A stretch of DNA of 64,000 nucleotides from Verrucomicrobiia bacterium. Lineage in GTDB: Bacteria > Verrucomicrobiota > Verrucomicrobiia > Limisphaerales > UBA11358. Below, one piece after another: positions 27,310 through 55,767 of the stretch (positions are counted from its first letter, which is position 1; every line of letters starts with the position of its first letter). Below the pieces are notes generated by a model. That model saw only the letters and a program-made list of their open reading frames with translations, searched no databases and was not told the origin of the DNA. The position numbers were made by a program, and so were the translations under genes. The stretch covers positions 819 to 64,818 of the forward strand of contig DATLVR010000095.1 in assembly GCA_035577265.1 (NCBI GenBank), given 5' to 3'.

Positions 27310-27337
27310 TGCAAACCCTCGTTTTCTTCGGACAATT

Positions 27338-27367: not shown

Positions 27368-27392
27368 ATTAGTTTTTCAATCATTGGCCAGC

Positions 27393-31391: not shown

Positions 31392-31645
31392 GGCGTTGCG
31401 TTGGTGGTTTTGGGTTATGAACGGATGGCTGTCGTTTTGAAAATCATGGCAGCAGCAATCAAGCAAGCAGTCGTCGTTGAACGATGAAGACACTGATTTT
31501 TGTTTAGTTGTGCTAGCATGGGCTGATTCGGTGTCAAACATAGGCGACTGGCAAATTTATTCCATCATGCAAACGGATGATTTTGCCCCGTGCCGCCAAA
31601 ACCGTAGAATGCCGACAGATACCCGTCGGTGGAACGCCGCCAGCA

Positions 31646-32266
31646 TCACTGGAGATATTTCAACACGGCCTCGGTGCGGGAACGCACGTGAAGTTTTTCG
31701 TAGATATGCTGGAGATGCGTGCGGACGGTGTTGACGCTGACGGACGTGCGATCCGCAATTTCCTTGGTGGAATAGCCCTTGGCCAGTTGTTCCAGAATTT
31801 CCTCCTCGCGTTCAGAAAGCTCCTCCACCTTGCGGGCGCCTTCCGAGTCACCGCGAAACGACTGCACCACCTGCCGGGCGATCTTGCTGCTCATCGGCGC
31901 CCCGCCCTGTTTGACTTCCTGAATCGCGCGAAGAATGTCCGCCGGATCCGCACGCTTCAACAAATAGCCGCTGGCGCCGGCTTTCAACGCGCCAAAGACC
32001 CGCTCATTATCTTCATACACGGTCAGGATCAGGATCTGGATTCCGGGACAAATGTCCTTGAGCCGCCGCGTGCAGGCCATGCCGGACATGCTGGGCAGAT
32101 GAATGTCCATGAGCACCACCTCCGGGGAAATTTTCGGCATCACTTTCAGCGCCTCCTCCGCGGAGCCACACGCCGCCACGCATTTATATCCCGGCGCGTC
32201 ATTCAAATACCGGGACAGGGTGTTCCGGAAATCCCGATTATCCTCAACGATGCCAACACTGATCAT
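31646..32266 (-). CDS. NarL/FixJ-family response regulator
   Basis: VGIVEDNRDFRN, VLMDIHLPSMSG, ILTVYEDNERVFGALKAGASGYLLK, LSEREEEILEQLAKGYSTKEIADRTSVSVNTVRTHLQHIYEKLHV. It is a paralog of 14007..14756. Confidence 0.9.
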   Translation of the reverse strand: MISVGIVEDNRDFRNTLSRYLNDAPGYKCVAACGSAEEALKVMPKISPEVVLMDIHLPSMSGMACTRRLKDICPGIQILILTVYEDNERVFGALKAGASGYLLKRADPADILRAIQEVKQGGAPMSSKIARQVVQSFRGDSEGARKVEELSEREEEILEQLAKGYSTKEIADRTSVSVNTVRTHLQHIYEKLHVRSRTEAVLKYLQ

Positions 32267-32283
32267 AATTCAATATCTCTCAT

Positions 32284-40722: not shown

Positions 40723-43248
40723 TTACGGGTAAGTTAACCTGTAAAAAACGCTCCCATCGCCCGGCGAAATTGGAACAGTCATCGAGTTGGTGATATCGGC
40801 ACCGGAAACTTCAGACCAGTTCGCGCCCAGACCAGCGCCGGGAGCGTTCGTTTGAACCCACAATCGCCAGCCGGTATGCGTCGCCGGCCAGGACAGGGCG
40901 AGCGAGTTGCCCGCCGTTGGTTGCGCCGTGATGTTGGTTGGCACGGTGGAGACGCCGTAGAACTGAATTTCGGACACGTTACAACTTCCATTCGGCGGCG
41001 AAACATATCGCAGATAGCGGAACACGGCATGATTCGTGAGGGTGATGGTGGTGAACAAGCCTTCTGGTGGAGCATATCCGACAACGTGCAACGTGACCGC
41101 ATCACTGAAGTCCGCCATGTTCGCCGCTTCGAATACGCCCGTCACCATGCGCGGAGACCAATTGGCGCGCGGACAATAGCGGAGCGTCGTCACCGCCATA
41201 GGGTTCCCGGCACCAAGATCCAGTCCGACCCAGGCGCCGCTCGTCGTTGGCGCATCGAAATAGGTGACGAGGCTGCCATCAAATGCTTTCTCCTTCGTGT
41301 TACCCCCGTTGCCAAATGATCCACTGGTGCCAATGATGGTGCCGCTCAAAAGCTGGCTTGGGCTGACCGTCAACGGCGGCTCCTGGAAAAACCGCGCGAC
41401 AAAACCGGAGCCGCCCGTGTTGGTAATGGTCACGAACAATACACTGCCGCGCGTCACGGTGGTGTGTTCCAAGCTGGTGCTGGATTCGCGGATGATCTGC
41501 GCCTGATACGTCGTGTTGGAATTCAGGAAGGTCAGCGGCACTACCCAACCTTGCGTGACACCCGTGTTCATGATTCCAATGAACCATTCATTGCCCTTGC
41601 GCCGGGCGGTGGCGACGGTCGTGCCCAGCTGACTCTGTGATAAAACCATGGTTTCATCCCACATGCTGGGAATCGCGCGGATCACCGGGGCAAACGGACT
41701 TTTGGCGATGGTATCCGACCGCTCGGCGTATGTAATGATCGGCCCGGGCATGTTGATCGGATTGGCGATTTCGTAAGCCGACTGACTGCCCAATAACATC
41801 GGCGTGAAATCAGCCGGACCGGCGAGGAAACGCGTGAATGGAACAGGCATCGTGGCGGCAGAACTCAGGAATTGTTCCTTGCCGAACACCGCCTCGACTT
41901 CAATCAGATTCGGCCAGGTGCGGAATTGTCCCGTGGGTTTTGTCGATCCATGAAAATTTGCGACCAGATGATAGGCGGCCGCATCACGCAAAATGTCTTC
42001 CTCCAATTTGACCCGCTCTTTCGCCGAGGCATTGACACCACTGAAGTCGAAGAAGTCCGCCTTGAATCCATCCACGCCATACGTCTGCAACAGCTGGAAA
42101 AAATTTGTGCGCTGTGAAAACGTGTTTAACTCGGACGAAGTTTTCCAAAGCAGCACCTTCACCCCGGCGGCATGGGAAAAATTGACGACCTGCTGCACCT
42201 GTGGCCAGGGATTGCCGTCGTTCCAGGACGACCAGCCGGAATCCACCGTGTTGTATTCAAATCCCAGCCGGGCGGCCCACAAGGAATTCGTCATCGCGTT
42301 GGTCCAGGTGATGCCACCGGGTTGCGGGCGCAGCCAATCCCAAACCGACCGCCCTGTCGTCGCCCAGGATGTCGCCGTGCCTTCAGGAAACAGGACCGGA
42401 TCAGGTGGCGGTGCGAGACTTTCCACAATGTCATTATTCACGATCATGTTGAGGTTTGAGCCAACCATGATGACGTTCCACGGTGTGCTGACTGCGCCGG
42501 CCACGGACACGCCGGTGCCGCCGCCCTGGTTGACTGGATAGGTCACTTGAAATTTTCGCCCGGTCGGGTCCGCGATTTTGGTCAGATACGGACTGCCGAA
42601 CACTCCCAAGGTGGACTCCGTGAGCGCGACAAATCCATTCGCTCCCGGAAGCTGAACCGTCACCGGCGGACCCATCGCCGTGTTGGTTGCCATCGCAGTG
42701 ATGCTCATGCCGCTGTAAACACCCTCGTAAACCGAAGTGCCATTCTGTGACCAGACCGTGCTGCTGTCCGGAATGACAAAGCTGCTGGATTCCGCCGTGA
42801 TATTTTTCGTCGCCGAGTTGGTGAATTCGTAGCGGAACGCCACCCCGTTGCCATATGCACGGACATTGAGAAAGCCGGTCAAACCCGACGCCGCATGATT
42901 CAAGGTGATGAGCTGAGCCTGAAATTGGTCCACACCGGTCGCGTGGATCCCGTGGCGTGACGGAAATATTCCATTCGTCGAGTAGGCGGTCGCACCGGCG
43001 ATGGTCACCCCTGAGCCTAGATTGGTGCCGTTGACCGTAACGCCAAGTGATGACGCTTCAATCACCGGCACTCCGCGATACGTCACGGAATAATTTAAAT
43101 TCCCTGAGGTCGTTTGAACGGTCGCTACGACCGCCCCGTCCGGTCCGGTGACGGTAACCGCCGACGCGCACGCGTTGCCCAGCATCAGCAAGCCCGCCAG
43201 CAACAAGGCCCGCAACGCATTCCGCCTTTGAAAATCACGCCCGCTCAC
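40723..43248 (-). CDS. Secreted GH97 glycosidase + discoidin (F5/8 type C, CBM32-like) domain + conserved C-terminal domain
   Basis: GH97 motifs: LNVRAYGNGVAFRYEF, YNTVDSGWSSW, YGVDGFKADFFD, NFHGSTKPTGQFRTWPNLIEVEAVFGKE. Discoidin-like part: KEKAFDGSLVTYFDAPTTSGAWVGLDLG. The tail ends GSVFYRLTYP. The GTG start overlaps the aguA stop (GTGA). Confidence 0.85.
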   Translation of the reverse strand: MSGRDFQRRNALRALLLAGLLMLGNACASAVTVTGPDGAVVATVQTTSGNLNYSVTYRGVPVIEASSLGVTVNGTNLGSGVTIAGATAYSTNGIFPSRHGIHATGVDQFQAQLITLNHAASGLTGFLNVRAYGNGVAFRYEFTNSATKNITAESSSFVIPDSSTVWSQNGTSVYEGVYSGMSITAMATNTAMGPPVTVQLPGANGFVALTESTLGVFGSPYLTKIADPTGRKFQVTYPVNQGGGTGVSVAGAVSTPWNVIMVGSNLNMIVNNDIVESLAPPPDPVLFPEGTATSWATTGRSVWDWLRPQPGGITWTNAMTNSLWAARLGFEYNTVDSGWSSWNDGNPWPQVQQVVNFSHAAGVKVLLWKTSSELNTFSQRTNFFQLLQTYGVDGFKADFFDFSGVNASAKERVKLEEDILRDAAAYHLVANFHGSTKPTGQFRTWPNLIEVEAVFGKEQFLSSAATMPVPFTRFLAGPADFTPMLLGSQSAYEIANPINMPGPIITYAERSDTIAKSPFAPVIRAIPSMWDETMVLSQSQLGTTVATARRKGNEWFIGIMNTGVTQGWVVPLTFLNSNTTYQAQIIRESSTSLEHTTVTRGSVLFVTITNTGGSGFVARFFQEPPLTVSPSQLLSGTIIGTSGSFGNGGNTKEKAFDGSLVTYFDAPTTSGAWVGLDLGAGNPMAVTTLRYCPRANWSPRMVTGVFEAANMADFSDAVTLHVVGYAPPEGLFTTITLTNHAVFRYLRYVSPPNGSCNVSEIQFYGVSTVPTNITAQPTAGNSLALSWPATHTGWRLWVQTNAPGAGLGANWSEVSGADITNSMTVPISPGDGSVFYRLTYP

Positions 43249-45398
43249 GACGGCTCCTTGTGCATGGCCAGATGGTCGGGCAAGGGCTTGTTATTCACGG
43301 ACTGAAAATAACGCAGGCAGGTATCCCGCCAGTTGACCGCGTGAGCCAGCTGGGTCGCGAGTTTTTTTTGCACGGCCTCAAACCGCTCCGCGTCCACCCT
43401 GCCCCGCAGCGTTTCCCACTGCACCTGCATCGTCTTCACATACTCGACGCCGGCATTGTAACGAGCACACAGTTCATCCCACACCGTGCGCCCATCCGAC
43501 AATTTGTAATCCCAGTCAACATGATGGAACCACAACAGCAGGTCAGGCGGACAGGTGTTCAGGTTGGAAAAATAATCTCCCACTGGTGGTGCATACTGGG
43601 CAACCGCATCGGAGCCACTGGCGGTGCGGTCGAACCCTATGCCCCGCGCATCGGCCTGGTGATAATACCACCCCGAATATTCCGGGGATTTGTTATTGTG
43701 CGTTTGCGGTGCTGGATCATAGTGTCCGCCGCCTTCCATGATATGATGCAGCCCCAGCGGCATCTCGTAATCCACGCACCCCTCCCACGAGCCGAGCATC
43801 ATGTTGGTGATGGTGGCGATCACCTTGGGATCGTTGCTCCAGGTCATTTTGCCCCATTCCTCCGCGATCTGCGCCGCGCTCAACCGGCTGTTCCAGGCCA
43901 GCCGGCCAAACGCATACCAATTGGCCTGGGCGAAATCATGGCCGCACCAGTTGCGATCCTGTCCGGTGTTCGCCACGCCGGCGATGGCGGTGTGGGCCGA
44001 AGCGGCAAACGTTTTCGCCACGGTTGAACCCGGACCGTCAGCGTGCGTGTCCGATTCCAAAAATTCCTGCCACATGGGCGCCAGAAATACCAGGTCAGTG
44101 GCGTGCCCCATGTTCTCCTGCGTGATCTCCAGTTCCGCCATCAAGGATGTTTTGTGCATCGCACCAAACAACGGATGAAACGGTTCGTGCGGCTGGAAAT
44201 CAATCGGGCCGGTTTTCACCTGGACAAAAACATTGTCGCCAAATTTTCCGTCCAGCGGTTTGAATTCCGTGTAGGCGCGTTTGGCGCGATCCGGGTCCAC
44301 CTTCGGACTGTTGTAAACGAAAGCCCGCCACATCACCACGCCACCATGCGGCGCGAGGGCATCGGCCAGCAGGTTTGCCCCGTCCGCATGCGTGAGGCCG
44401 TAATCCTGCGGGCCGGGCTGGCCTTCGGAATTGGCCTTCACCAGAAAACCGCCGAAGTCCGGGATGAGCGCATAAATTTCATCCGCTTTTTGCCGCCACC
44501 ATTTGCGAACCGCCGGATCTTTGGGATTGGCCGTCTTCAATCCACCCAGCTTTTTTGGCGAAGCGAAATTCACCGAAAGATAAACACGGATGCCATAGGG
44601 CCGGAACACCTCCGCCAGCGCCGCCGCCTTCTTGAGATTTTCCGTGCTCAATTGCTCCGGCCGGGCGTTGACATTGTTTAACACCGCACCATTCAACCCG
44701 AGCGAGGCATCCGCCCTGGCGTAATCCTGATAACGCGGCTCCAGTTTTCCCGGCAGTTCGGCCCATTGCCACAGGGATCTCCCGGCAAATCCGCGCTCCA
44801 CGCTGCCGTTCAAATTGTCCCAATGATTCAACAGCCTACGCTCCAGCGCGGGCTTCTCGGCGATGGCCAGGTGATCAATGGCCTGACGAGTCTGGAGCAA
44901 CCGCAAAAAATGAAATGTTCCGTAGAGCGCCCCGGTCTCACCCTGCGACGCGATCACAGTCAGGGCACGACCGGAATTGGTCACCGACCGGATGAGATAT
45001 CCGTCGTTGCCAAGCTGCTTGAGTTCGGCATCCCATCCCACTGCAGCAACCGCCGGGTTATTGGCGGGAGTTCCAATCACCAGCGCGCCGCTGCGGGTAA
45101 CGGCCTGCGAACATTGCCGATTGCCACCCAGTAATCCCGACAATCCGTCTTTAATTTCATCCCGGATCACCTGCTGCGTTGGCGAATTGGTCGCCACCAC
45201 AATTTCAGTGATGTGCGTCAAATACGCTTCCCGCTGCACGCGATTGGTGACAGGTTCGTATCGCAGCCACAGCCGGTAACCATCCTCGGCCTGAAGCGGC
45301 AAGGCAAACAACAGCACCAGCAAAAATGCGCCCAGATAAAATCTGCTGCCGGGACTTTGGGACCGGCGGGAACTAATTTGATCGATCGCGCTGGTCAT
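43245..45398 (-). CDS. aguA: GH67 alpha-glucuronidase
   Basis: EDGYRLWLRYEPV at the mature N-terminus, RRLLNHWDNLNGSVERGFAGRSLW and other GH67-typical blocks, at the expected ~700-aa length. Its ATG overlaps the upstream stop (ATGA). Confidence 0.85.
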   Translation of the reverse strand: MTSAIDQISSRRSQSPGSRFYLGAFLLVLLFALPLQAEDGYRLWLRYEPVTNRVQREAYLTHITEIVVATNSPTQQVIRDEIKDGLSGLLGGNRQCSQAVTRSGALVIGTPANNPAVAAVGWDAELKQLGNDGYLIRSVTNSGRALTVIASQGETGALYGTFHFLRLLQTRQAIDHLAIAEKPALERRLLNHWDNLNGSVERGFAGRSLWQWAELPGKLEPRYQDYARADASLGLNGAVLNNVNARPEQLSTENLKKAAALAEVFRPYGIRVYLSVNFASPKKLGGLKTANPKDPAVRKWWRQKADEIYALIPDFGGFLVKANSEGQPGPQDYGLTHADGANLLADALAPHGGVVMWRAFVYNSPKVDPDRAKRAYTEFKPLDGKFGDNVFVQVKTGPIDFQPHEPFHPLFGAMHKTSLMAELEITQENMGHATDLVFLAPMWQEFLESDTHADGPGSTVAKTFAASAHTAIAGVANTGQDRNWCGHDFAQANWYAFGRLAWNSRLSAAQIAEEWGKMTWSNDPKVIATITNMMLGSWEGCVDYEMPLGLHHIMEGGGHYDPAPQTHNNKSPEYSGWYYHQADARGIGFDRTASGSDAVAQYAPPVGDYFSNLNTCPPDLLLWFHHVDWDYKLSDGRTVWDELCARYNAGVEYVKTMQVQWETLRGRVDAERFEAVQKKLATQLAHAVNWRDTCLRYFQSVNNKPLPDHLAMHKEPS

Positions 45399-48300
45399 GG
45401 ATATGTGAGCCGGAAAAAAGTGCCTCCTTCGGTCAGATCAACCGGCAAGATTATTGCGTTCGTCACGTCCGAACCCGCAACGTCCACCCAGTTCGTGGCC
45501 AAACCCGCAGTCAGACTATTTGTCTGAGTTTGCAACCGCCACCCGATGTGATCTTCCGGCCAGGAGAGGGTCAGTGAATTGTTCGCGACCGCCACCCATA
45601 GGTTCGTTGGATTGGTTGCAACGACGCGTAACAACGCAATCGTTCCATCAACCGCGAGCTTGTTGGTCCACGTCAACGCTGAATCAACAACCGGCAGATT
45701 GACGGTGGTGAACCCGGCGACCGGCATGTTGAATAATTGGAAGCTGTCGCCCGCCTGAAGCGCGGGACCGAGATTGTTCACTGTCAATATGCCGCCGCCC
45801 GTGATGGTTCCGGTGGTCGAAATCAATTTGTCGTTCGGCTGTGCGTTGGTGCGATTCAGTTCTACGACGACAGTTCCGGCGAGAGTGATATTGCTCTGTA
45901 CTACGAGCGTTCCAACGGTATCGCCGGGATTGATGATGGAACCGCCCACGGCATTCAACTTGCCAAGCAAAGTTCCACTGCCGCGAAGAGTCTTACCGCT
46001 GTTCAAGGTCAATGTCCGGTCCGTGCGCCCCGTCACATCCAACACCGCTGTGTTGGAGATGATGATTTGCGCGCTGCTGGCAATGTTGCCGGGTTCAACC
46101 AACGCCAGCGTGCCGGCACCGATGGTCGTGTTGCCGGCGTAGGTGTTCGCTTTTGATAAGGTGAGCCTGCCGGCACCGAGTTTGCTCAAACCGCCGGCAC
46201 CATTCGCCAGCACCTGCGCGATGGTGATATTGAAATTCGCCGTGTCGAACATGACGCCGCCAGGATTCACCGTGGCTGTAGTGAGATTGGTGATGAAGCT
46301 TATGCTGTTCGCGCCCGCGATGAATTTTACGCCGTTCAAATTCAATATGCTGGTGCCGGTGCCGCCGGCGATGCCCGAGCCAGTTGTCGTGATCTTCAAC
46401 GTGCCGCCGTTCAAGTTCAGTGTTCCCGCCGACTGCGTGGTTGCGCCGAGCAAAATGGCCGTGCTGTTATCCGTGGAGGCGACGACGCTCGTGCCGTCGA
46501 GATTCGTGATGGTTAGAACACCCGTCGCCGTGCCCACGCCGCCGCCGAGCAGATTTCTGCCGAGCACAACGACACTGCCCGCGCGGCTGATGTCGAGGTG
46601 ATTGGCAGAACTGTTTCCCAGAATCAACGCACCGACCTGCCCGCCGCCACCGGTGTTGTTGATCGTGCCAATCGTCAAGCTGCTTAAATTGCCGACGAAC
46701 GTCCCGGCGGAAAAATTGTTGCTCGACATAAAGGTCGTTCCCGTGCCGAGCTGACCGAGCGCGGCGGAGTTGCCGATGCTCAAGGCGGTGCGGCTTCCAG
46801 TTGAACCAACGTTGAAGACCGCGCCGCTGCCGCAGGTGAAAGTTGGATTGCACTTCCGTGCGCCCAGAATCAGCGTCGGCGTCAGGATGGTGGTGATTCC
46901 ATTGGGCGCAGTGGTCAAAACCGCCTGTGAGCTTGCAGCATTAAAGGCGCTGGCGGCGTCGCCAATGGTTATGGATGTCGAGGCGGTGATAGTATTGTTC
47001 GTGCCGAGATTCAATGTGCCGGTCCACGGGAAATTACCACCGGGGTTCTGTGCATTAACGCCAACCTGAATGGAGCCAACGTTCACCGTAAAATTGGACG
47101 AGGCGGAAACGTCCAGCGTGCCGAACGAAGCCGCGCCAAAATTTCCAGCGGCAATGGAAATGGAATCGCTGGAACCGCTGCCAATGCTTACCGATGTGTT
47201 GGCTGGAACGACCACACTGCCATTCGTCATCGGCGAACTGCTGTTGTTGAGAGCGATGTTCAGGCTGGCCACGGAAGAATTACCCGCGAGCGTCTGCGTG
47301 CCGCTACCGGTTTTGTTCAAGATCAAAGGCCGGGCGCTACTGGAAACCAGCTTGCCGGAAAAACTTCCACTACTATTGCCACTCCCTACGGTCAGACTCA
47401 CTGAATTAGACGACCCATTTGTGATAACGCCACCGGTTCCCAACAGCGCGCCAATGATCTGACTCGTTCCGTTCAAATCAACCAAGCCGAAGCCGTGCGC
47501 CGCGTTGTTGCTGATGGCCAAAAATGCGCCGGAGCCGAGCGTGCCGGAGCCGGAAAGCTGCACTGTGTCCGCTGCATTGAGCACTGTGCCGTTGGTGTAG
47601 GTATTCGCTCCGGTGAGCAGCAAGGTGCCACCGGTGATTCCACCCGGGGCATCCACCGTCAACGTGCCGCCACCACTGATCTGCGACGCCACGGTAAACA
47701 GGTTTGCCTGCGGGTCGAAGAGATTACCGGTGCCGATCAAGGAAACATATCCCGCCAACGTTTCCGGCAATCCGGACCAGTCGCTCACCACGCCGCCACC
47801 CAGAAACAACGCCGTGCCAGGTGCCGCACCAATGGTCGTCACATTGCCACTACCGGTTGCCTTGATGCGTAGAGCTCCGCCATTGGTGAGATATAATGCG
47901 CCACCTGCAAATATCTGATCGCCGCCGACCGCCGGCGTGCGCAAGTCCAGCCCGGAAACTTGATAGATGTTCGTCGCAGTAGGGGCCAAGGAGTTCGACC
48001 AATTCAACCCCGAGTTAAAGCTCGATACGCCGACAGCATCGCTGTTAGTCAGCGGAATGGTGACCGGATCAATCCATTGAAAATTATAGGTGGCATGAGC
48101 CGAAACACCATAGTCCATCCCCACGGCTTCCACTTCAATCGGCGTGAAGGCTTCATTGTTGCTGCGCGCGAGCTGGGAAATAAAAACGCCATTGTTCGGC
48201 GTGGCCCAAAGCCAGCTCAAACTGTTGTTAGGATTCCGGCGATAAACATTGTAGTAATAAACCGCGTCGGTGGAATTGCTCCAAGTCAGACGCAGGTTAT

Positions 48301-50050
48301 ATGTTTTCCAATCCAGATTGTATAATTTGTCCACCGCAACCGAAGCGGGCGCGGCTGGCGTGCTAATGGAGCCGTTGTAGACCGATAGCTGACCGACGCG
48401 CAGCGAGTAGCTACCGACCGTAGTAGCGTTGCCGATGCGCAGAGAAATCGTTGAAATCTTTTTTCCGGCGAACACAGATAAATCCAATGTGTTCGTGTTC
48501 CATCCAGTGGTAACGGTATTGCCGATGTCGAGAAACTGAAAATTTGTCGGGCTGTCTTCAAAGGCCAGTCCGAGTTTCAAATACGTCGCGCCAATCAAGC
48601 CGGTTTTGTAGATGCACCGAACATGGGTATTGTTGCTGACCGCAAGGCTGGTTTGATAAAGCCAGATGTCGTTGGTGGCGCTGGTAACTGTGCCAGCGAT
48701 CATCAAAGACGCGCCGCCGTAATACGCGTCAACAAAATCAATGCTCGGAACGAGCTTGGTGCCGGTGCTTTTCACCAGCCAGCGCCAGGTTGGCAAAACG
48801 TCCTGCAAGCCAAGGTTGTTCCAGCCGCCATTCATCAATTGCTGGCCGTTTATGTTGAAAAAACTCCCCTGCCCAGGATTGAAGCTTGTTGTGAAAGGCA
48901 CGCTGCTGATGGGTGACGCCGCCGGAATGAAATGCGATATACCCGGCCACGCATTGTTTGAGGAGGTGTTGCCCGGATCGCCGCCGGGTCCGACCCAGTA
49001 ATAATTGTCGCGCGCGTAGAAGTTCGTTACACTGGATGCGTAGTTAAAGGTCCATTCCGGCCGGTAGATGCCCAGCGAAACCAAGTGCGGCTGGCCTTCA
49101 GGAAAAAGATAATACCAGTCAATCCCGGTTGTAGTGTAGCCGCCGCTTTCCGTGTCAATGCCCGCATAAAGATCATAGGGACTGCGGCCAAGACTTTGCG
49201 CCAGCGAACGGGAGTTCGGCAGCTCTGTGGTGTCCCCATAATTGCTGCCCCACCAAAAATTCAAAAACATATTATCCGAGACCGGCCCGCTCACCCCTTG
49301 AAAAAACATCTGGTTGTAGCTGTCCAACTCATTCCGATAATCAATGCTGCCGTTTTTATCCATCGCGTCATACCAGACAATCTTCAGTCCGGGCGCCTTC
49401 GCGTGAAAATAGTTGATGAAATTGGTCATCGCCGACGCCGTTGCCGACGATCCGCCAACGGTCTCCTGATTGATAAACCAGCCATCGAAACCAAAATACT
49501 GCGCGGCCTGGATCAACTTGTCCGCCACCGGAAAGTTTGTGCCGGACTGCTGGAGAAAATCATTCACCCATTGAAATTTTCCGCCATAAACGGTTGGCGG
49601 GAAAAAGACGTTACCCATCATCATCACGCCGTTGCGGTGCGCTGCGTCAATCACGTGGCCGTTGGGCACGAGAAGAATGCCCGAACCTGCCGATCCGCCC
49701 CAATACACCATGGACTTCATGTATTGCCAGTAGTTGCCGGCGTAAAAACGGTTCGTGCGCGAGCCTTCGGCGGAACTGACCGGCGTGGAATTGAACGCCA
49801 CCAGCGACATTACGCCCGCTTCGTTGGTGCGGGCGTGAGGATTTACATTCAACGCGGGATTAACAAATCGCATCGCCAACGGAATGGTGCTTTTGTTGTA
49901 AAATGCGTCCGGGTCGTTCGTCGGATTCCAGTTTAGAATTGTTGCAGGATAAAATGATGGTGCGGCCGGCTCGCCCAGTTCCTGGGCTTTCACCGCAATT
50001 CCAAAGGGGACGCAAAGCATCGACAGGAACATCCAGGCAAATAGCTTCAT
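45395..50050 (-). CDS. Secreted GH85 endo-beta-N-acetylglucosaminidase head + FN3-like domain + ~885-aa PATR stalk + conserved C-terminal domain
   Basis: The likely start is MKLFAWMFLSMLCVPFGIAVKAQ (50050). The ORF track extends to 50437, but that part overlaps the upstream gene. GH85 motifs: MVYWGGSAGSGILLVPNGHVIDAAHRNGVMMMGNVFFPP and YFGFDGWFINQET. PATR repeat: GLSKLGAGRLTLSKANTYAGNTTIGAGTLAL. It ends GGTFFRLTYP. Confidence 0.85.
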   Translation of the reverse strand: MKLFAWMFLSMLCVPFGIAVKAQELGEPAAPSFYPATILNWNPTNDPDAFYNKSTIPLAMRFVNPALNVNPHARTNEAGVMSLVAFNSTPVSSAEGSRTNRFYAGNYWQYMKSMVYWGGSAGSGILLVPNGHVIDAAHRNGVMMMGNVFFPPTVYGGKFQWVNDFLQQSGTNFPVADKLIQAAQYFGFDGWFINQETVGGSSATASAMTNFINYFHAKAPGLKIVWYDAMDKNGSIDYRNELDSYNQMFFQGVSGPVSDNMFLNFWWGSNYGDTTELPNSRSLAQSLGRSPYDLYAGIDTESGGYTTTGIDWYYLFPEGQPHLVSLGIYRPEWTFNYASSVTNFYARDNYYWVGPGGDPGNTSSNNAWPGISHFIPAASPISSVPFTTSFNPGQGSFFNINGQQLMNGGWNNLGLQDVLPTWRWLVKSTGTKLVPSIDFVDAYYGGASLMIAGTVTSATNDIWLYQTSLAVSNNTHVRCIYKTGLIGATYLKLGLAFEDSPTNFQFLDIGNTVTTGWNTNTLDLSVFAGKKISTISLRIGNATTVGSYSLRVGQLSVYNGSISTPAAPASVAVDKLYNLDWKTYNLRLTWSNSTDAVYYYNVYRRNPNNSLSWLWATPNNGVFISQLARSNNEAFTPIEVEAVGMDYGVSAHATYNFQWIDPVTIPLTNSDAVGVSSFNSGLNWSNSLAPTATNIYQVSGLDLRTPAVGGDQIFAGGALYLTNGGALRIKATGSGNVTTIGAAPGTALFLGGGVVSDWSGLPETLAGYVSLIGTGNLFDPQANLFTVASQISGGGTLTVDAPGGITGGTLLLTGANTYTNGTVLNAADTVQLSGSGTLGSGAFLAISNNAAHGFGLVDLNGTSQIIGALLGTGGVITNGSSNSVSLTVGSGNSSGSFSGKLVSSSARPLILNKTGSGTQTLAGNSSVASLNIALNNSSSPMTNGSVVVPANTSVSIGSGSSDSISIAAGNFGAASFGTLDVSASSNFTVNVGSIQVGVNAQNPGGNFPWTGTLNLGTNNTITASTSITIGDAASAFNAASSQAVLTTAPNGITTILTPTLILGARKCNPTFTCGSGAVFNVGSTGSRTALSIGNSAALGQLGTGTTFMSSNNFSAGTFVGNLSSLTIGTINNTGGGGQVGALILGNSSANHLDISRAGSVVVLGRNLLGGGVGTATGVLTITNLDGTSVVASTDNSTAILLGATTQSAGTLNLNGGTLKITTTGSGIAGGTGTSILNLNGVKFIAGANSISFITNLTTATVNPGGVMFDTANFNITIAQVLANGAGGLSKLGAGRLTLSKANTYAGNTTIGAGTLALVEPGNIASSAQIIISNTAVLDVTGRTDRTLTLNSGKTLRGSGTLLGKLNAVGGSIINPGDTVGTLVVQSNITLAGTVVVELNRTNAQPNDKLISTTGTITGGGILTVNNLGPALQAGDSFQLFNMPVAGFTTVNLPVVDSALTWTNKLAVDGTIALLRVVATNPTNLWVAVANNSLTLSWPEDHIGWRLQTQTNSLTAGLATNWVDVAGSDVTNAIILPVDLTEGGTFFRLTYP

Positions 50051-50166
50051 GATCCGCTTGTCTGCTGGCAGGGGCCGATCCGCTGCCACCGACGAAGCTG
50101 TCAGAGTTCGCACGCTGGAGATTGCACGCTGTCGAAATGGTTTTCGCATACTCAGGGTCAAAACGT

Positions 50167-53100
50167 TCACGGGAAAACGAGCCGGAAAAAGACGCCGCCA
50201 TTGGCCGGATTGATGGGCATCGTCATCACGTTGGTCGCCGCAGCGCCGATCATATCCACCCAGTTCGCGCCCAGACCGGTCGCCAGCGCATTGGTCTGCA
50301 CCTCCAGTCGCCAGCCGATGTGATCGGCCGGCCAGGCCAGAGTCAATTGATTGCCTGCGCCGATTCCTGTCGCAATGACCGCTGCATTGGTTGACACCAC
50401 CCGGATGCTTCCGTCCATCGCCACGTTGTTTTGCCACACATTCCCGCCCGTTAATGCCGGCAGGTTCACCGTTGTGAATCCATCCACCGGCTGGTTAAAC
50501 AGATAAAACACATCTCCGCCCTGTAACGCCCCGCCAAGATTATTCACCGTCAAGGTTCCGCCTCCGCCAATGCTTCCAGAGATGGATACTAGTTTGTCGT
50601 TCAATGGAACATTGCCGCGGTTTATTTCCATCACCAACGTTCCTCCCAAGGTGATGTTGGTTTCCACGGCGAGCGTGCCGATGGTGTCACCCGGGTTGAT
50701 GGTCGATCCACTCAAGGCATTCAGCTCGCCCAGCAACGTCCCGCCACCGCGCAGCGACCGGCCGTTGTTGAGCGTCAAGGTCTGATCACTCCGCCCGGTC
50801 ACATCCAGAACTGCGGCGTTGGAAATTATGATGGACGCGCTGCTGGCAATGCTGCCCGGCTCGACCAATGCCAGCGTGCCCACACCAATCACGGTATCTC
50901 CGGCATAAGTGTTCGCCTTCGATAGCGTCAGCTTGCCCGCGCCGGACTTGCGCAACCCACCGCCACCATTGGCAAGCACTTGGGGAATGACCAGATTGAA
51001 ACCTGCCGTGTCGAACGCAACACCGCCGGCATTCACATTGACCGTGGTGACATTGGTGATGTAACCGGCGCTGCCGGCCCCGGCCTTGAGAGTGATTCCG
51101 TCCAGATTAACCGTGCTGGTTCCGGCACCGCCCGCGATGCCCGGCCCCGTCGTGGTGATCGTCAACGTGCCTCCGTTCAAGTTCAGTGTCCCCGCAGATT
51201 TGGCGGTGCCGCCCAGCAAAATCGCCGCGCCGTTGTCGGTCGAAACAACGACGCTTGATGAATCGAGATTGCTCAAGGTCAGGACGCCGACCGACTGACC
51301 TGATCCGCTGCCGCTCAAATATTGCCCGACGGTCACCACGGTTCCACTGCCGGCGAGATCAAGATGATTCGCAGCGTTGCCGCCCATGGTGAGAAGTCCG
51401 GTTTCATTCCCATTACCACCGTTGGCCAGTTGACCGAGCGCCAGTTTGCTGAGCCAGGCATTGAGGCGGCCGCCGGAACAATCGAGGTTCCCCGTGTAGT
51501 TGCCGCTGCCACCGCGCGATGATGCGGCGATGTTCAACGCGGTGCGATTGCCGTTGTTTCCCAGGTTCAACGTTGACCCCATTCCTAGCGTGAAGGTCGC
51601 ACTGGCTTTGCTGCCGCCCAGGGTCAGGCTCGGTGTCAGCATGGTCGTGCTGCCGTTGTCGGCGGTGGTGACGGATTGTGCGGTCGTGTTGAAGGTGTTC
51701 CCCATGTCGCCGAAGACAATTGAGGAAGCCGCATTGAGCGTGTTGTTCGTGCCGAGCTTCAGGGTCCCGAGAATGACAGGCGAGCCGCCGGAGGTATTGG
51801 TGCTGATGCCCAGCTGAATCGTGTTCACGTTCGCGGTGAAATTGGTGGACGCCGACACGTCCAACGTCGCGGTGATGGTGCCGGAATTGACATTGCCGGC
51901 CGACGCGATTGCCAGTTGATTGCTGATGGCCAGCAGCGCATTGGACACAACCAACGTGCCGCCGGAGACGATCAATCCGCCGTTGACATAATTGGTGTTC
52001 CGCGCGAAGGAAATGGTTCCAACTCCCGTCTTGACCAGTTCGATCCCGCCGGTGCCATTCCAAATGGATCCCTGAAAAATACCGCCGGCGGCATCGCCAT
52101 TGCCGATGGTCAGCGTGCTCAGATTGGTGTTGCCATTGTAGATTTTCCCGCCAATGCCGCTTAGATTGCCCACGCCCAGATCGAGTCCGTTGAGGTCGAC
52201 GGAGCCGTAGCCATTGCCAGCGCTGTTGCTGAAAGTGAGCGAACCGTTGGTATCACCCAGCGAGCCAGTGCCGCTGAGGCGAACGGTGTCCGCTGCATCA
52301 ATGATGGTCCCGCCCGTGTAGGTGTTGTATCCGGAAAAAATCAGCGTGCCGCCGCTTTGGATCGGGTTCGCCGCCTTTACCTTCAAAAATCCCGGGCCGC
52401 CGATGAATGCCGAGATCGTGAACGTGTTTCCCTGCGGATCAAATTTCCCCCCGCCGGCCCGCAACGTGACATTGCCATAGAAGGTGGCGCTGTTGTTCGC
52501 CCAGTCAGCGACCTCCCCGTTGTCCAGAAACAGATCTGTCCCCACCGAAATCCCCCGTCCGCCGCTCGTGTTCTTGCAGGCGAGTATGCCATTATTGGTC
52601 AACGTCAGCGAACTGCCCGCGAAATAATGGTGCAGCCCGTCCGGTGGGGTTCTCAATGTCAGTCCGTTGACAACATAATCGTGGGCTGAGGATGGCGCCG
52701 TGCCATCCGACCAGTTCAAGCCGCTCTCAAAGCTGCTGCTGCCCGTATCCGACGCGCTCAACGTCACCGTGGTCGGATTCACGGTCTGTGACGGGGGCAC
52801 GGCGATCATGGCCTCGAAGGAGGAGATGCAATCATACGAAAAGAAATTCGTGCCCTCGGGAGTCCGTTGCGGCCATTGACACCAGGAAAGGTTGTCTGAA
52901 GCCCGGCGGCCGTTCCACGCGGCGTTCGCCAGATTCTGCAACCAGACCTGGTAGCTGCTTTCCAGGCCGCGATGCTTCATGAATTTCGCCAGCCAGCGGA
53001 TGCAGATCGCGTTGAAGATGGAATTGTTCTGTGCGATGCCATACTGCGGCATGAAACCGGAACTGCCCATGTTGTTTTTGGTGTAGTTCGCGGCGAGAAT

Positions 53101-53853
53101 CGCGTCATTGGTCAGCCCGAGAAAATCCGCCGCGCCGATGAAAGTGCCCTGATTGTAAGTCGTCGGCACCTGACTCGACAGGCTGTCATAGACCTGGCCG
53201 TTGGCCGGGTTGAAAAAATTCGCTTTGCCCCAGGTATAAATATTGGTTGCCTTCGTCAGGTAAGCGGGATCACCCAGACACTGATAGAGCAGATAAGCTG
53301 CGATGGCTGCGGGAAAGTTAACGGCAGAATTCTTGGAATTGTTGGCGGTAGTCCAGAACATCCCCCCGATGGGTGGCACAACAGTTCCATTGGTGTCCCA
53401 ACCGCGTGCATAACACATATCGAAATTATTTTTGGCGATGTCCAGAAATGCAGGGTTACCGGTCTTGAGATATCCCCGGGCATACGCCATGCACGCCCAC
53501 ATGATGTCGTCGTTAAAGCTGTTCGAAGACCAGTTGGTGCCATTGTAACTTTTAAATCCGTTCAGCAGATTGGTGATCATCACCTGATACGTGGCGTTGG
53601 AAGTCCAATCGTGGGCGTCGATCACGCATTCGATCTCGTTGGCCAGCCACCAGAAATAGGTATAGTTCGCGTTGGCCTGATTCTCCCTGAAATAGCCGTT
53701 GGTGCCGCTGACCACATAAAACTTGTTGGTGTAGGCATTGACGATGGTCGCCACGTCGTTGCTGTAAAAGGCAGACGCCTTGAATCCGCACAGCAAAATC
53801 GTGAGACAAAGCAGCCGAATCCAAACTGACTTCAACTGAATCATTTTTGCCAT
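50167..53853 (-). CDS. Secreted GH76 alpha-1,6-mannanase head + ~860-aa PATR stalk + conserved C-terminal domain
   Basis: GH76 motifs: NSFNDDIMWACMAYARGYLKTGNPAFLDIAKNNF, GGMFWTTANNSKNSAVNFPAAIAAYLLYQ, YNQGTFIG. The stalk is collinear with that of 45395..50050. It ends GGVFFRLVFP. Confidence 0.85.
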   Translation of the reverse strand: MAKMIQLKSVWIRLLCLTILLCGFKASAFYSNDVATIVNAYTNKFYVVSGTNGYFRENQANANYTYFWWLANEIECVIDAHDWTSNATYQVMITNLLNGFKSYNGTNWSSNSFNDDIMWACMAYARGYLKTGNPAFLDIAKNNFDMCYARGWDTNGTVVPPIGGMFWTTANNSKNSAVNFPAAIAAYLLYQCLGDPAYLTKATNIYTWGKANFFNPANGQVYDSLSSQVPTTYNQGTFIGAADFLGLTNDAILAANYTKNNMGSSGFMPQYGIAQNNSIFNAICIRWLAKFMKHRGLESSYQVWLQNLANAAWNGRRASDNLSWCQWPQRTPEGTNFFSYDCISSFEAMIAVPPSQTVNPTTVTLSASDTGSSSFESGLNWSDGTAPSSAHDYVVNGLTLRTPPDGLHHYFAGSSLTLTNNGILACKNTSGGRGISVGTDLFLDNGEVADWANNSATFYGNVTLRAGGGKFDPQGNTFTISAFIGGPGFLKVKAANPIQSGGTLIFSGYNTYTGGTIIDAADTVRLSGTGSLGDTNGSLTFSNSAGNGYGSVDLNGLDLGVGNLSGIGGKIYNGNTNLSTLTIGNGDAAGGIFQGSIWNGTGGIELVKTGVGTISFARNTNYVNGGLIVSGGTLVVSNALLAISNQLAIASAGNVNSGTITATLDVSASTNFTANVNTIQLGISTNTSGGSPVILGTLKLGTNNTLNAASSIVFGDMGNTFNTTAQSVTTADNGSTTMLTPSLTLGGSKASATFTLGMGSTLNLGNNGNRTALNIAASSRGGSGNYTGNLDCSGGRLNAWLSKLALGQLANGGNGNETGLLTMGGNAANHLDLAGSGTVVTVGQYLSGSGSGQSVGVLTLSNLDSSSVVVSTDNGAAILLGGTAKSAGTLNLNGGTLTITTTGPGIAGGAGTSTVNLDGITLKAGAGSAGYITNVTTVNVNAGGVAFDTAGFNLVIPQVLANGGGGLRKSGAGKLTLSKANTYAGDTVIGVGTLALVEPGSIASSASIIISNAAVLDVTGRSDQTLTLNNGRSLRGGGTLLGELNALSGSTINPGDTIGTLAVETNITLGGTLVMEINRGNVPLNDKLVSISGSIGGGGTLTVNNLGGALQGGDVFYLFNQPVDGFTTVNLPALTGGNVWQNNVAMDGSIRVVSTNAAVIATGIGAGNQLTLAWPADHIGWRLEVQTNALATGLGANWVDMIGAAATNVMTMPINPANGGVFFRLVFP

Positions 53854-53870: not shown

Positions 53871-55745
53871 TTATTTTTTCGCGGACATTGCCGGCACGAG
53901 CCAGGCAACATAGCCGCCATCCTTGCGCAAGGGCAGCGGCAGATGGTCCTTCTGCGTGACGATGCGCTCGGTGCGGATAAAGGCGTCGTTCCGTTCCGGA
54001 TCATCCGCCAGTTCGACCAAGCGGTAGCCACCGCTGCCGAGAAAACTCAACGCGACACTCTCGTGGCGTGGTGTGAGGTCGTTGATCACGCCGATAAACC
54101 ATTGGTCACGGCTTCGACGCGCGAAGGCGGCGACCTGCCCGATTTCACTGCCGTGCAGCACGCGGGTTTCGTCCCAATCCGAAGGCAGTGCCTTCAGGAC
54201 ATCCACCGCCATACTCTTGAGATAGTTGGTGGGATTGTCGCCCATGCAAAGATACGGAGAAGTGAAGACGATCGCCATGGCCAGTTCATGCGCAAAGGAA
54301 GAACCTTTCAAACGGTCGTGCATGAACAGTGTTGGCGTGAAGTCGGCAGGCCCTTGAACATAACGCAGAAATGGCAGCGTGATGTCGTGCAACGCCGGAC
54401 TCTTGCCCTGCTCGCGACCGGCGACTGCCTCCCGTGACATCTCGTTCGGCCACGTGCGTTCACGGCCGGTCGGTTTCACCGCCCCGTGAAAATCGATCAT
54501 GAGTTGGTTCGCCGCGGCATCGCGCAATACATCCTCATACCATTGCACCCACGTGGCACTGGCGGGCTCCGGAAAATCCACTTTCAATCCCACGATCCCC
54601 ATGGCCTTGGCGCGTTTGAAATACGCCTCCCGATCCGCCGGTTGGAGGACATATTTGGCATGCACCCACGCCCAGATGTCGACGTTCTGGCTTTTCGCAT
54701 AGGCGACAATTTCTTCCATCGCCTTCCACGCATTATCCCCGCCGCCGTTCCAATCGCGCCAGCCGTCATCGATGAGATAATATTCGTAGCCCATCTCCCG
54801 CGTGCGATCCACCCACCACTTCTGCTTGCCGAGTTCCGGCCCGCAATAGCAACTCAGCCAATGCCAGATCGAACGGCCAGGTTTGATCCACGCCGCATCG
54901 GCCAGTTCCGCCGGCGGCGGCGGGCAAAGATTTTTGATGAGGTCGCTGTTCACCATGGCATTCAAATCGGCGGCCAGCAGCGTCACGTGCCAGGGCGAAA
55001 TGATTTCACCTTCCTGGTCCCAGCCATCGGGGTCGTCGTGAAAAACGGCTTTGAATCCGTTGGGGCCGCTCGACGTCAGCGCCATGTCACTGTAATGAAT
55101 CAAATTCGCCTCAGTCATCAGACCGTAACCGGCATTGTCCGGAAACTTCAACGCGGCGGGTGCCATCAAATGCTGGTTCGTTCCCATCTGGCCGACGATG
55201 TTGGGCACAAAACGTGCCTCGTAAGAACGATTGTCCGCGCTTTGATGCCAGATGGTGGTGCCGGCGGGCAGCTGCCATTCTGAACTTTCGCCATTGATGT
55301 GGTGCCTGCCGGTTTCGGGCACGCGGTAGCGATAGGCGACCCCGTCGTCGTAAGCGCGCAGTTCCAGCTGCCATGATGTTCCCTGCGTGCCGCCAGTCAG
55401 CGGGATGATCGCGGAACAAAAGTGATTGATGGCGTTGGTATGAACACCCCGCGTAACGTAATGCTCGTTGATTTCCTTGGTCTCCGGTTTTCCGGCAAGT
55501 GCAACTTTCTGCCCCAGATCATTGCCGTCCACGGTCACGCCCATCTGTGAGGTTTTCACCACTACCGCATGATGAAACTCAACGGAGTAAGTCAGGCGCT
55601 CACCGGGCTGAACCTGCACCGACACGTGGCCGTCCGGACTTTTGACCGTCACCGCACCGGCGGCATGGCCGGTGACAGCCGCCAACACCCCGGCGGCGCA
55701 CAGGACCATCAAGTTTTTGGGAACGAAATTATTTGAAACGAACAT
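53871..55745 (-). CDS. Secreted GH97 glycosidase (single-domain architecture)
   Basis: The likely start is MFVSNNFVPKNLMVLCAAGVLAAVTGHAAG (55745). The ORF track extends to 55952, overlapping the GH125 gene. GH97 motifs: LELRAYDDGVAYRYRVP, YYLIDDGWRDW, MGIVGLKVDFPE, IDFHGAVKPTGRERTWPNEMSREAVAGRE. Confidence 0.85.
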   Translation of the reverse strand: MFVSNNFVPKNLMVLCAAGVLAAVTGHAAGAVTVKSPDGHVSVQVQPGERLTYSVEFHHAVVVKTSQMGVTVDGNDLGQKVALAGKPETKEINEHYVTRGVHTNAINHFCSAIIPLTGGTQGTSWQLELRAYDDGVAYRYRVPETGRHHINGESSEWQLPAGTTIWHQSADNRSYEARFVPNIVGQMGTNQHLMAPAALKFPDNAGYGLMTEANLIHYSDMALTSSGPNGFKAVFHDDPDGWDQEGEIISPWHVTLLAADLNAMVNSDLIKNLCPPPPAELADAAWIKPGRSIWHWLSCYCGPELGKQKWWVDRTREMGYEYYLIDDGWRDWNGGGDNAWKAMEEIVAYAKSQNVDIWAWVHAKYVLQPADREAYFKRAKAMGIVGLKVDFPEPASATWVQWYEDVLRDAAANQLMIDFHGAVKPTGRERTWPNEMSREAVAGREQGKSPALHDITLPFLRYVQGPADFTPTLFMHDRLKGSSFAHELAMAIVFTSPYLCMGDNPTNYLKSMAVDVLKALPSDWDETRVLHGSEIGQVAAFARRSRDQWFIGVINDLTPRHESVALSFLGSGGYRLVELADDPERNDAFIRTERIVTQKDHLPLPLRKDGGYVAWLVPAMSAKK

Positions 55746-55767
55746 GGTTGATTTTTCTTGAGCGGAG

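What the first reader, a model, noticed from the sequence alone, without database searches (positions are those of the whole stretch)
40726..50382. Conserved ~70-aa extreme C-terminal domain ending (F/Y)(F/Y)R(L/V)..P in seven secreted proteins: candidate sorting/anchoring tag
I found seven tails. 2197-2440 ends QRFYRYSTP and 16411-16641 ends ETFLRVVVSYP. 27396-27605 reads [17 protein letters not shown]...NVFYRLRHP and 35681-35854 reads LTLTWAG..KLLQAANLAGPW...RQFFRVLAE. 40726-40941 reads LALSWPATHTGWRLWVQTNAPGAGLGANWSEV...GSVFYRLTYP. 45398-45613 reads LTLSWPEDHIGWRLQTQTNSLTAGLATNWVDV...GGTFFRLTYP. 50170-50382 reads LTLAWPADHIGWRLEVQTNALATGLGANWVDM...GGVFFRLVFP. The domain is always the last element. 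It is attached to unrelated enzymes (GH97 x2, GH78-like, GH28, GH85, GH76) and to the non-catalytic giant, and it terminates 2-4 residues after the aromatic-Arg motif. This positional behaviour matches C-terminal sorting domains such as the T9SS CTD. There is no hydrophobic helix with a basic tail, so it is not PEP-CTERM or LPXTG, and there is no beta-barrel translocator, so it is not an autotransporter. I do not know of a described secretion or attachment pathway for such a tag in PVC bacteria.
Basis: partly seen in the sequence, partly recalled or inferred. Interest (0 to 1): 0.7.

Follow-up and report, generated by a model that had tools for sequence, protein, structure and literature searches.

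The report
Strictly terminal truncated-FN3 tail family
Secreted sugar-degrading enzymes and giant adhesin-like proteins of one order of Verrucomicrobia all end in the same uncatalogued ~75-residue fibronectin-III-like module that stops one strand short of a full fold, which makes it a good candidate address or docking tag, though its function is untested.

Summary
All genes are on the minus strand. Four tails (GH97b, GH85, GH76, LamG/PATR giant) form one tight family: 51% pairwise identity, E = 3e-27, on unrelated cargo. The GH97a and GH28 tails belong to a looser second class that is remotely homologous to it (hhalign 92-94%, P about 1e-7). The GH78 tail is not demonstrably related.

No Pfam or NCBIfam model, PDB sequence or searchable paper covers the module. 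It has 5,221 50%-identity clusters, and named hits are almost all Verrucomicrobiota/Limisphaerales. It is terminal in 90/90 genomic copies and in all 150 best database hits, one of which is a tandem pair with an extra internal copy. It ends R-[LM]-x-[YF]-P-COOH.

AlphaFold (pLDDT 90), Foldseek and alignment to canonical FN3 repeats in the same proteins indicate an FN3-like sandwich ending after strand F, with no G strand.

Hosts carry signal peptides and varied cargo. Tail-less GH76 and GH97 paralogues sit in the same locus.

The sorting or docking reading is plausible but unproven, and no machinery was found. One giant subfamily is followed by a prepilin-type gene in 37% of loci.

The parts
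40726..40956 (-). Core-type tail of GH97b (aa 765-841), ...LALSWPATHTGWRLWVQTN...SVFYRLTYP-COOH
   Evidence: (E=2e-34)
45398..45628 (-). Core-type tail of the GH85/PATR protein (last 77 aa), ...LTLSWPEDHIGWRLQTQTN...GTFFRLTYP-COOH; the sequence modelled by AlphaFold
   Evidence: pLDDT 90.3; E=6e-37
50170..50400 (-). Core-type tail of the GH76/PATR protein (aa 1152-1228), ...LTLAWPADHIGWRLEVQTN...GVFFRLVFP-COOH
   Evidence: (E=1e-34)
27396..27617 (-). Core-type tail (divergent subtype) of the LamG_3/PATR/Ig giant (aa 1309-1382), ...[18 protein letters not shown]...[13 protein letters not shown]
   Evidence: (E=5e-28)
2197..2412 (-). Class-2 tail of the esterase+GH97a protein (aa 1215-1286), ...GLPYSLWTSPDLTLPNTNW...QRFYRYSTP-COOH
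   Evidence: E=4.8e-7; hhalign 98.5%, P=2.5e-15; hmmsearch E=2.3e-14 with a window-independent profile
35681..35854 (-). Class-2 (short subtype) tail of the GH28 protein, ...LTLTWAGSGKLLQAANLAGPW...RQFFRVLAE-COOH
   Evidence: P=0.0011 vs core; E=1.2e-7; P=3.5e-4
16411..16653 (-). C-terminal region of the GH78 protein after a TSP3 repeat, ending ETFLRVVVSYP; relation to the tails is unproven
   Evidence: TSP3_bac 803-822; P=8.6e-4, prob 24%
40723..43248 (-). GH97b gene (GH97_N/GH97/GH97_C + weak F5/8C-like region + tail), signal-peptide-like N-terminus
45395..50050 (-). GH85 gene (GH85 + GH85_C + PATR + tail); start set at M130 with signal peptide MKLFAWMFLSMLCVPFGIAVKA
50167..53853 (-). GH76 gene (GH76 + PATR + tail), signal peptide
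27393..31391 (-). Non-catalytic giant (PATR, LamG_3, Ig/I-set + tail); start probably M51 with signal peptide [29 protein letters not shown]
26476..27384 (-). Prepilin-type N-terminal cleavage/methylation protein (302 aa), 8 nt downstream of the giant; this gene pair is conserved in other genomes
   Evidence: N_methyl; 31/83 loci; TIGR02532 above cutoff
20509..21801 (-). Tail-less GH76 paralogue (430 aa) in the same locus
53871..55952 (-). Tail-less GH97 paralogue (693 aa) in the same locus

Best explanation
The tails are an uncatalogued, lineage-specific derivative of the fibronectin type III fold. They span strands A to F and then the polypeptide ends: V-F-[YF]-R-[LM]-x-[YF]-P-COOH is the F strand, and there is no F-G loop or G strand.

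The module is appended as the last element of Sec-exported proteins of Limisphaerales-type Verrucomicrobiota. These include glycoside hydrolases and lyases of many families, and PATR/LamG/Ig giants that lack an autotransporter barrel or PEP-CTERM.

My best reading is that it is a common docking or address module. After Sec export, the conserved polar and aromatic face (H27, Q35, N37, R73, W30, W47) and the unprotected edge of the terminal F strand bind one shared partner of the cell envelope or export apparatus, probably by beta-strand augmentation. This directs or retains the cargo at the cell surface. Tail-less paralogues would stay periplasmic.

Shown: family membership, fold class, strict terminal position, cargo range, signal peptides, taxonomic restriction. 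Inferred: the missing G strand (from alignment register and strand count), the shared partner, and surface localisation.
For: Strictly terminal position:
- 90/90 copies in 79 loci from 41 assemblies end 0-4 aa before the stop.
- All 150 best of 5,221 cluster representatives end within 4 aa of the protein end.
- The C-terminus is 3-6 aa after the invariant Arg. The last residue is Pro in 66/90 and 224/263.

Conservation:
- 6 invariant and 10 nearly invariant positions in 77 across unrelated cargo and genomes.
- DNA identity among the window's four tails is only 60-66%, so selection acts on the protein.

Cargo and export:
- Cargo is heterogeneous: GH97, GH85, GH76, GH28, GH30, pectate lyase, lectins, PATR, LamG.
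- Host proteins have signal-peptide-like N-termini.
- Tail-less GH76 and GH97 paralogues lie in the same locus.

Fold:
- AF2 pLDDT 90.3 with six beta elements. Foldseek returns only FN3 domains in the top 50.
- An iterated profile reaches canonical Pfam fn3 repeats inside the same proteins, and the tail ends where their F strand (YYYVVSA) ends.
- hhalign of class 2 vs FN3 gives P = 2e-4, ending at template column 75 of 97.

No known family: Pfam, NCBIfam and PDB sequence searches all negative.

From established knowledge (TIGR02601 and TIGR04393 descriptions): PATR-type repeats normally sit upstream of an autotransporter barrel or a PEP-CTERM anchor. Here the tail occupies that position.
Against: - No partner, machinery, cleavage site or localisation data were found. 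Recurrent neighbours are regulators and, for one subfamily only, a prepilin-like gene.
- FN3-like modules are common passive spacers or binding modules in bacterial CAZymes, so the fold does not imply sorting.
- One tandem pair (P0121) and a few internal class-2-like copies (L051/L075, L018) show the fold can exist away from a terminus.
- The missing G strand rests on weak sequence-to-FN3 alignments (P = 0.014 for the core type) and on DSSP strand counts. I could not inspect coordinates.
- Positional statistics come from the best-scoring members. The roughly 5,000 weaker hits were not examined.
Confidence: 0.45

Rival explanations
1. It is a passive accessory module: an FN3-like spacer, stabiliser or carbohydrate-binding domain with no sorting role. 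It sits last only because domain shuffling adds modules at 3' ends. The conserved Trp and His residues are core residues or a glycan-binding platform.
For: FN3 fold. Canonical FN3 repeats occur in the same proteins. Cargo is mostly CAZymes and lectin-type giants. A tandem copy exists. No machinery was found.
Against: Binding and spacer modules are normally found at variable positions and in variable copy number. This one is terminal in 90/90 genomic copies and in all 150 best hits, with a fixed 3-6-residue end and a conserved terminal Pro. One highly conserved module on enzymes for unrelated substrates (pectin, mannan, N-glycan, alpha-glucosides/galactosides) argues against substrate targeting. 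It matches no CBM or fn3 model, even at E <= 10.
Confidence: 0.27
2. It is a true translocation signal in the manner of the T9SS CTD. An outer-membrane export machine recognises it and a sortase-like peptidase removes it, so the mature protein lacks the tail.
For: It shows the same positional logic, size (~75 aa), beta-sandwich nature, cargo diversity and many copies per genome as T9SS CTDs. At least 16 loci from one MAG appear among the best 80.
Against: There is no similarity to T9SS type A or B models (best E = 0.092, below cutoff). No T9SS CTD structure appears among the 50 best Foldseek matches. T9SS is, to my knowledge, confined to Bacteroidota/FCB. No conserved cleavage motif is evident upstream beyond the domain's own PTNIT start. 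Sequence conservation (50-65%) is much higher than is usual for T9SS CTDs, to my knowledge.
Confidence: 0.15
3. It is an assembly module that couples cargo to type II secretion or type IV pilus-like fibres. The prepilin-type proteins that are hugely expanded in PVC bacteria supply the missing strand or bind the tail. This exports or displays the cargo, analogous to cohesin-dockerin pairing or to minor-pilin-dependent secretion.
For: 31 of 83 assessable tail genes are followed within 60-281 nt, on the same strand, by a ~300-aa prepilin-type gene, including the window's giant -> 26476..27384 pair. The read-through fragment P0108 shows the same pairing. An incomplete Ig-like fold is the classic acceptor for donor-strand complementation (established knowledge of chaperone-usher pilins).
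Against: The pairing is confined to one tail subtype on non-enzymatic giants and is absent next to the GH-cargo genes. It may therefore belong to the giant and not to the tail. The background frequency of prepilin-like genes in these genomes was not measured. No interaction evidence exists.
Confidence: 0.1

Closest known systems
Fibronectin type III domain (Pfam PF00041 fn3; bacterial FN3 repeats of CAZymes and adhesins)
   Same: Beta-sandwich with the same strand order. All top 50 Foldseek matches are FN3. The tail aligns in register to canonical fn3 repeats in the same proteins: P..P..L / L.LSW / Y.V.R~W.LQ / ...YYYVV~VFYRL.
   Different: No PF00041 hit, even at E <= 10. It stops after strand F, with no F-G loop or G strand. 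It is strictly terminal and single-copy, with a distinct invariant set (WP.DH.GW, QTN, W, F.R...P-COOH), whereas canonical FN3 repeats are internal and tandem.
T9SS C-terminal sorting domains (TIGR04183/PF18962 type A; TIGR04131/PF13585 type B)
   Same: A 70-100-aa beta-sandwich that is always the last element of Sec-exported proteins with very diverse cargo, in many copies per genome.
   Different: No sequence match. Different phylum. T9SS CTDs are complete 7-stranded sandwiches (my knowledge). No Por/Spr machinery is known in Verrucomicrobiota. Processing and attachment are untested here.
Dockerin modules of cellulosomal enzymes
   Same: A small, conserved, usually C-terminal module shared by many unrelated CAZymes that docks them to a common partner.
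   Different: Dockerins are Ca-binding helical repeats, whereas this module is all-beta. No dockerin or cohesin Pfam hit in the window.
PEP-CTERM/exosortase and autotransporter beta-barrel ends of PATR-repeat proteins
   Same: Occupies the same architectural slot, downstream of PATR/autotransporter-associated beta-strand repeats.
   Different: No transmembrane helix plus basic tail and no barrel domain; the sequence ends in ...FYRLxYP. No NCBIfam sorting-signal hit.
G-strand-less Ig-like pilin domains of chaperone-usher pili (donor-strand complementation)
   Same: An incomplete Ig/FN3-like sandwich lacking the last strand. This suggests completion by a strand from another protein.
   Different: No sequence or family relation. 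Here the module is a tail on large enzymes, not a pilin subunit. Complementation is purely inferred.

Membership tests
T9SS C-terminal sorting domain (type A TIGR04183/PF18962, type B TIGR04131/PF13585) | Significant match to the family HMM | tested here: not met
   Pfam and NCBIfam scans of all seven tails at E <= 10: no type A hit. One type B hit at E = 0.092, 12.9 bits against a cutoff of 35.
T9SS C-terminal sorting domain | Extreme C-terminal position on signal-peptide-bearing, diverse cargo | tested here: met
T9SS C-terminal sorting domain | Co-occurrence with T9SS machinery (SprA/Sov, PorK/L/M/N, PorU/V) and cleavage by PorU | not testable with these tools
Fibronectin type III (PF00041) | Match to the fn3 HMM at or above the gathering score | tested here: not met
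   No fn3 hit for any tail at E <= 10. Internal repeats of the same proteins do hit (E = 2.8e-7).
Fibronectin type III (fold level) | FN3-type beta-sandwich topology | tested here: met
   AF2 pLDDT 90.3. The 50 best Foldseek PDB matches are all FN3 domains, prob up to 1.0, TM 0.45-0.61, but E only about 0.02. Profile links P = 2e-4 to 0.014.
Fibronectin type III (fold level) | Complete seven-strand sandwich including strand G | tested here: inconclusive
   The alignment register ends at the F strand (template column 74-75 of 97). DSSP shows six beta elements. Model coordinates could not be inspected.
PEP-CTERM / other exosortase, archaeosortase or rhombosortase signals | Signature motif followed by a hydrophobic helix and a basic cluster at the C-terminus | tested here: not met
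   The tails end ...FYRLxYP with no hydrophobic helix. No NCBIfam or Pfam hit.
Autotransporter (T5SS) | C-terminal beta-barrel translocator domain | tested here: not met
   PATR repeats are present but no autotransporter barrel domain is found in any of the seven proteins.
Dockerin | Duplicated Ca-binding helical repeat (PF00404) | tested here: not met
   No hit. The model is all-beta.

The most novel reading that the evidence does not exclude
The tail is the address tag of a previously unrecognised PVC-specific export or surface-attachment pathway. A G-strand-less FN3 at the free C-terminus would be completed by a donor strand from a dedicated envelope receptor. That receptor may be one of the massively expanded prepilin-type proteins, which would give those enigmatic paralogue families a function. 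The pathway would decide which CAZymes and giant adhesins reach the cell surface in Limisphaerales.
Probability: 0.25. Interest if true: 0.85.

Novelty: new variant of a known kind. Interest (0 to 1): 0.6.

Why it matters
Verrucomicrobiota are major polysaccharide degraders in soil and freshwater. It is not known how they move their large CAZyme arsenals and barrel-less PATR giants across or onto the outer membrane. This module is large (over 5,000 clusters at 50% identity), sharply defined and strictly terminal, and it is absent from Pfam, NCBIfam and the PDB.

That gives a concrete handle:
- It predicts which enzymes are surface-exposed and which are periplasmic.
- It provides a bait for finding the partner or machinery.
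- If it works by strand complementation, it would be a new way of using an FN3 scaffold.

Even if it proves to be only a binding module, it deserves a family definition. It would also improve annotation of thousands of 'hypothetical' C-termini.

Tried and rejected
- Pfam and NCBIfam scans of the tails alone at E <= 10 found nothing usable.
- A PDB sequence search with the 69-sequence profile gave only chance hits, E >= 1.
- The core HMMs (4 and 69 sequences) do not detect the GH97a, GH28 or GH78 tails. Single-sequence hhalign was inconclusive. The link needed independent class-2 profiles.
- A database search with the GH97a tail returned only two near-identical fragments. The class-2 alignment search returned 27 short unnamed fragments, so the taxonomic breadth of class 2 stays open.
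- AF2 of the GH97a tail from a 3-sequence alignment gave pLDDT 48.8 and is unusable. No fold comparison was attempted on it.
- Gene conversion or a DNA-level repeat as the cause of similarity is rejected: nt identity is 60-66%.
- The neighbour search for machinery found only antisense artefacts, NarL-type regulators, HisKA_3 kinases, other GHs and the prepilin-type genes.
- Six literature searches found no description of the tail.
- P0122's 'internal' copy is rejected as a read-through of an upstream gene's degenerate tail into the next gene's signal peptide.
Full report
**1. Observation**

The window's long ORFs are nearly all on the minus strand. On the minus strand they give exactly the quoted peptides, each at the extreme C-terminus of a long ORF.

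Pfam confirms the cargo:
- esterase + Ig + GH97 (2194..6054)
- GH78 (16408..19119)
- a PATR/LamG_3/Ig giant (27393..31541)
- GH28 (35678..38611)
- GH97 (40723..43248)
- GH85 + PATR (45395..50437; real start probably nt 50050)
- GH76 + PATR (50167..53853)

All seven have signal-peptide-like N-termini by eye.

**2. How many tails are really one domain**

- Core type. An HMM of the four most similar tails (giant, GH97b, GH85, GH76) finds only those four among all six-frame ORFs of the window. It finds no internal copy. GH85 and GH97b tails are 51% identical, BLASTP E = 3e-27, on unrelated catalytic domains. Their DNA is only 60-66% identical, so this is protein-level conservation and not recent gene conversion.
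- The deeper 69-sequence profile (A2) also misses the GH97a, GH28 and GH78 tails.
- Class 2. In 79 related genomic loci I found other large ORFs ending in ...FYR[VLI]xxx: 10 of 298, against about 0.7 expected for the motif. An HMM built only from those 10 detects the GH28 tail (E = 1.2e-7) and the GH97a tail (E = 4.8e-7) at their C-termini and nothing else in the window.
- A larger window-independent class-2 profile (27 sequences) gives GH97a 98.5%, P = 2.5e-15.
- Class 2 versus the core profile gives 91.9-94.3%, P = 7e-7 to 1e-7, end to end in one register. Reversed controls give 0.3-0.6%. Iterating from class 2 recruits all core tails.
- The GH78 tail follows a TSP3 repeat. It reaches only P = 8.6e-4, probability 24%, and nothing. 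It is unproven.

**3. Size, distribution, position**

- No Pfam or NCBIfam model matches any tail, even at E <= 10. No PDB sequence matches the profile.
- An exhaustive profile search of 1.84 billion cluster representatives finds 5,221 at E <= 1e-3 and 3,797 at E <= 1e-10. In all 150 best, the match ends within 4 residues of the protein end.
The best 80 come from 41 assemblies. Nearly all are labelled Verrucomicrobiota, Verrucomicrobiia, 'subdivision 3' or Limisphaerales. A few carry labels from other phyla, which I suspect are mislabelled MAGs. One MAG supplies 16 of the loci.
- In those loci, 90 of 90 HMM hits end 0-4 residues before a stop codon.
- The C-terminus lies 3-6 residues after the invariant Arg in 90/90 genomic copies, and 3-7 residues after it in 263/270 database proteins. 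The last residue is Pro in 66/90 and 224/263.
- Exceptions: one true tandem pair (P0121); one gene-call read-through (P0122); a few internal class-2-like copies. One orthologous pair of these (L051/L075) has lost the Arg (FFGL/FYGL).

**4. Cargo and context**

- Forty complete host ORFs from other genomes carry PATR (13), LamG_3 (8), Ig, GH76 (5), GH28, pectate lyase, GH30, GH97, ricin-type lectin and F5/8C domains.
- 53 of 64 complete hosts pass a strict signal-peptide heuristic. Most of the rest have one by eye.
- The window is a CAZyme locus: GH76 x2, GH125, GH85, GH97 x3, GH67, GH2, GH27 x2, GH78-like x2 and GH28, plus two HisKA_3 kinases and NarL-type regulators.
- GH76 and GH97 each occur both with and without the tail. 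This fits two destinations for one activity.

**5. Fold**

- AlphaFold2 with the 69-sequence alignment gives pLDDT 90.3 and an all-beta model with six beta elements.
- All 50 best Foldseek PDB matches are fibronectin type III domains (prob up to 1.0, TM 0.45-0.61, E about 0.02).
- The iterated profile reaches internal repeats of the same proteins that are bona fide Pfam fn3 (E = 2.8e-7). These read ...LSW...Y.V.R...GTTYYYVVSAvn..GES..S..v.a.P.
- The tail aligns with them from the A strand (P.NI) to the F strand (VFYRLxYP over YYYVVSA) and then ends. FN3 continues for about 20 more residues through the F-G loop and G strand. hhalign stops at template column 74-75 of 97 (P = 0.014 for core, 2e-4 for class 2).
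- The residues upstream differ with cargo: a PATR end in GH85 and GH76, and the last strand of a weakly matching discoidin-like (F5/8C) region in GH97b. No conserved cis strand is therefore available to fill the G position.
- The missing G strand is an inference. I could not inspect coordinates.

**6. Mechanism**

Four features are expected of a module that a single partner recognises through its free end:
- strict terminal position with a fixed, Pro-capped end
- high conservation across unrelated cargo
- many copies per genome
- occupation of the slot that an autotransporter barrel or PEP-CTERM takes in other PATR proteins (from my knowledge of the TIGR02601 and TIGR04393 descriptions)

A substrate-binding or spacer domain would not be expected to show them. 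An FN3 lacking strand G exposes the F-strand edge, which suggests docking by beta-augmentation.

I therefore favour a docking or address tag that puts cargo on the cell surface (confidence 0.45). The rivals are a passive binding or spacer module (0.27), a cleaved T9SS-like export signal (0.15) and coupling to prepilin-type fibres (0.10).

For the last rival, 31 of 83 assessable tail genes are followed within 60-281 nt by a ~300-aa prepilin-type gene. This includes the window's giant -> 26476..27384 pair. The pairing tracks one giant subfamily, not the tail in general.

**7. Known systems and novelty**

- The module fails the HMM tests for T9SS CTDs, PEP-CTERM-type signals, dockerin and fn3. 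The proteins have no autotransporter barrel.
- It shares the positional logic of T9SS CTDs and the fold of FN3.
- Six full-text literature searches found no description.
- I rate it a new variant of a known kind: a C-terminal beta-sandwich tag and a new FN3-derived family. Function is untested.

**8. Limits**

- Positional statistics cover the best-scoring members only.
- The taxonomic breadth of class 2 is unknown.
- The class-2 structure prediction failed.
- No genome-wide co-occurrence analysis was possible.

Noticed in passing
window 26476-35529 (minus strand): Operon-like row: HisKA_3 sensor kinase (32284..35529), NarL-type response regulator (31646..32266), tail-bearing LamG/PATR giant (27393..31541), prepilin-type protein (26476..27384, 8-nt gap). 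Homologues of the regulator and kinase recur upstream of tail genes in 15-16 other loci. The prepilin-type gene follows 31/83 tail genes.
   Followed up: partly
window 9145-9855 (minus strand): A 236-aa ORF that joins an N-terminal fragment of a sugar/MFS transporter (first ~150 of 452 profile positions) to a GH31 C-terminal domain. It is probably a deletion or fusion remnant, i.e. a pseudogene.
   Followed up: no
window 19467-20195 (plus strand): A 242-aa ORF with an HTH_21 domain (the transposase/integrase-type HTH), alone on the plus strand between the GH78 and GH76 genes. It is a likely IS-element remnant inside the CAZyme locus.
   Followed up: no
window 6174-9047 (minus strand): A 957-aa signal-peptide protein with no Pfam or NCBIfam hit. 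It ends in repeated '...GDWDGNGTFTPGIVRGNTWLLRNSNNGGGADI...' units. It has no FYRL tail.
   Followed up: no
P0121 (279-aa metagenome fragment); L051:7069-10464 and L075:7573-9633: Rare non-terminal copies. P0121 carries two tails in tandem. An orthologous pair of proteins has an internal class-2-like copy in which the invariant Arg is replaced (KRFFGLSYP / KRFYGLSLP), and the chain continues beyond it (676 further residues in L051; L075 runs off the end of its contig). This hints that the Arg matters only at a free terminus.
   Followed up: partly
window 16411-16740 (minus strand), GH78 C-terminus: The GH78 protein carries a bacterial TSP3 repeat and a weak match to the Amuc_1099 pilus-like-system family (aa 786-826) just before its ...TFLRVVVSYP end. 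This may be a different terminal module type.
   Followed up: partly
window 57779-60286 (plus strand) and 60291-64000: Two plus-strand ORFs (354 and 474 aa) have no family hit. The minus-strand ORFs beyond 60291 are Arg/His-rich and look like non-coding or antisense reading frames, so the true genes there were not determined.
   Followed up: no
locus table: Several tail-bearing contigs are deposited under names such as Bifidobacterium, Candidatus Sulfotelmatobacter, Methylacidimicrobium or Paceibacterota, although their content matches Limisphaerales-type Verrucomicrobiota. These are probably mislabelled MAGs.
   Followed up: no
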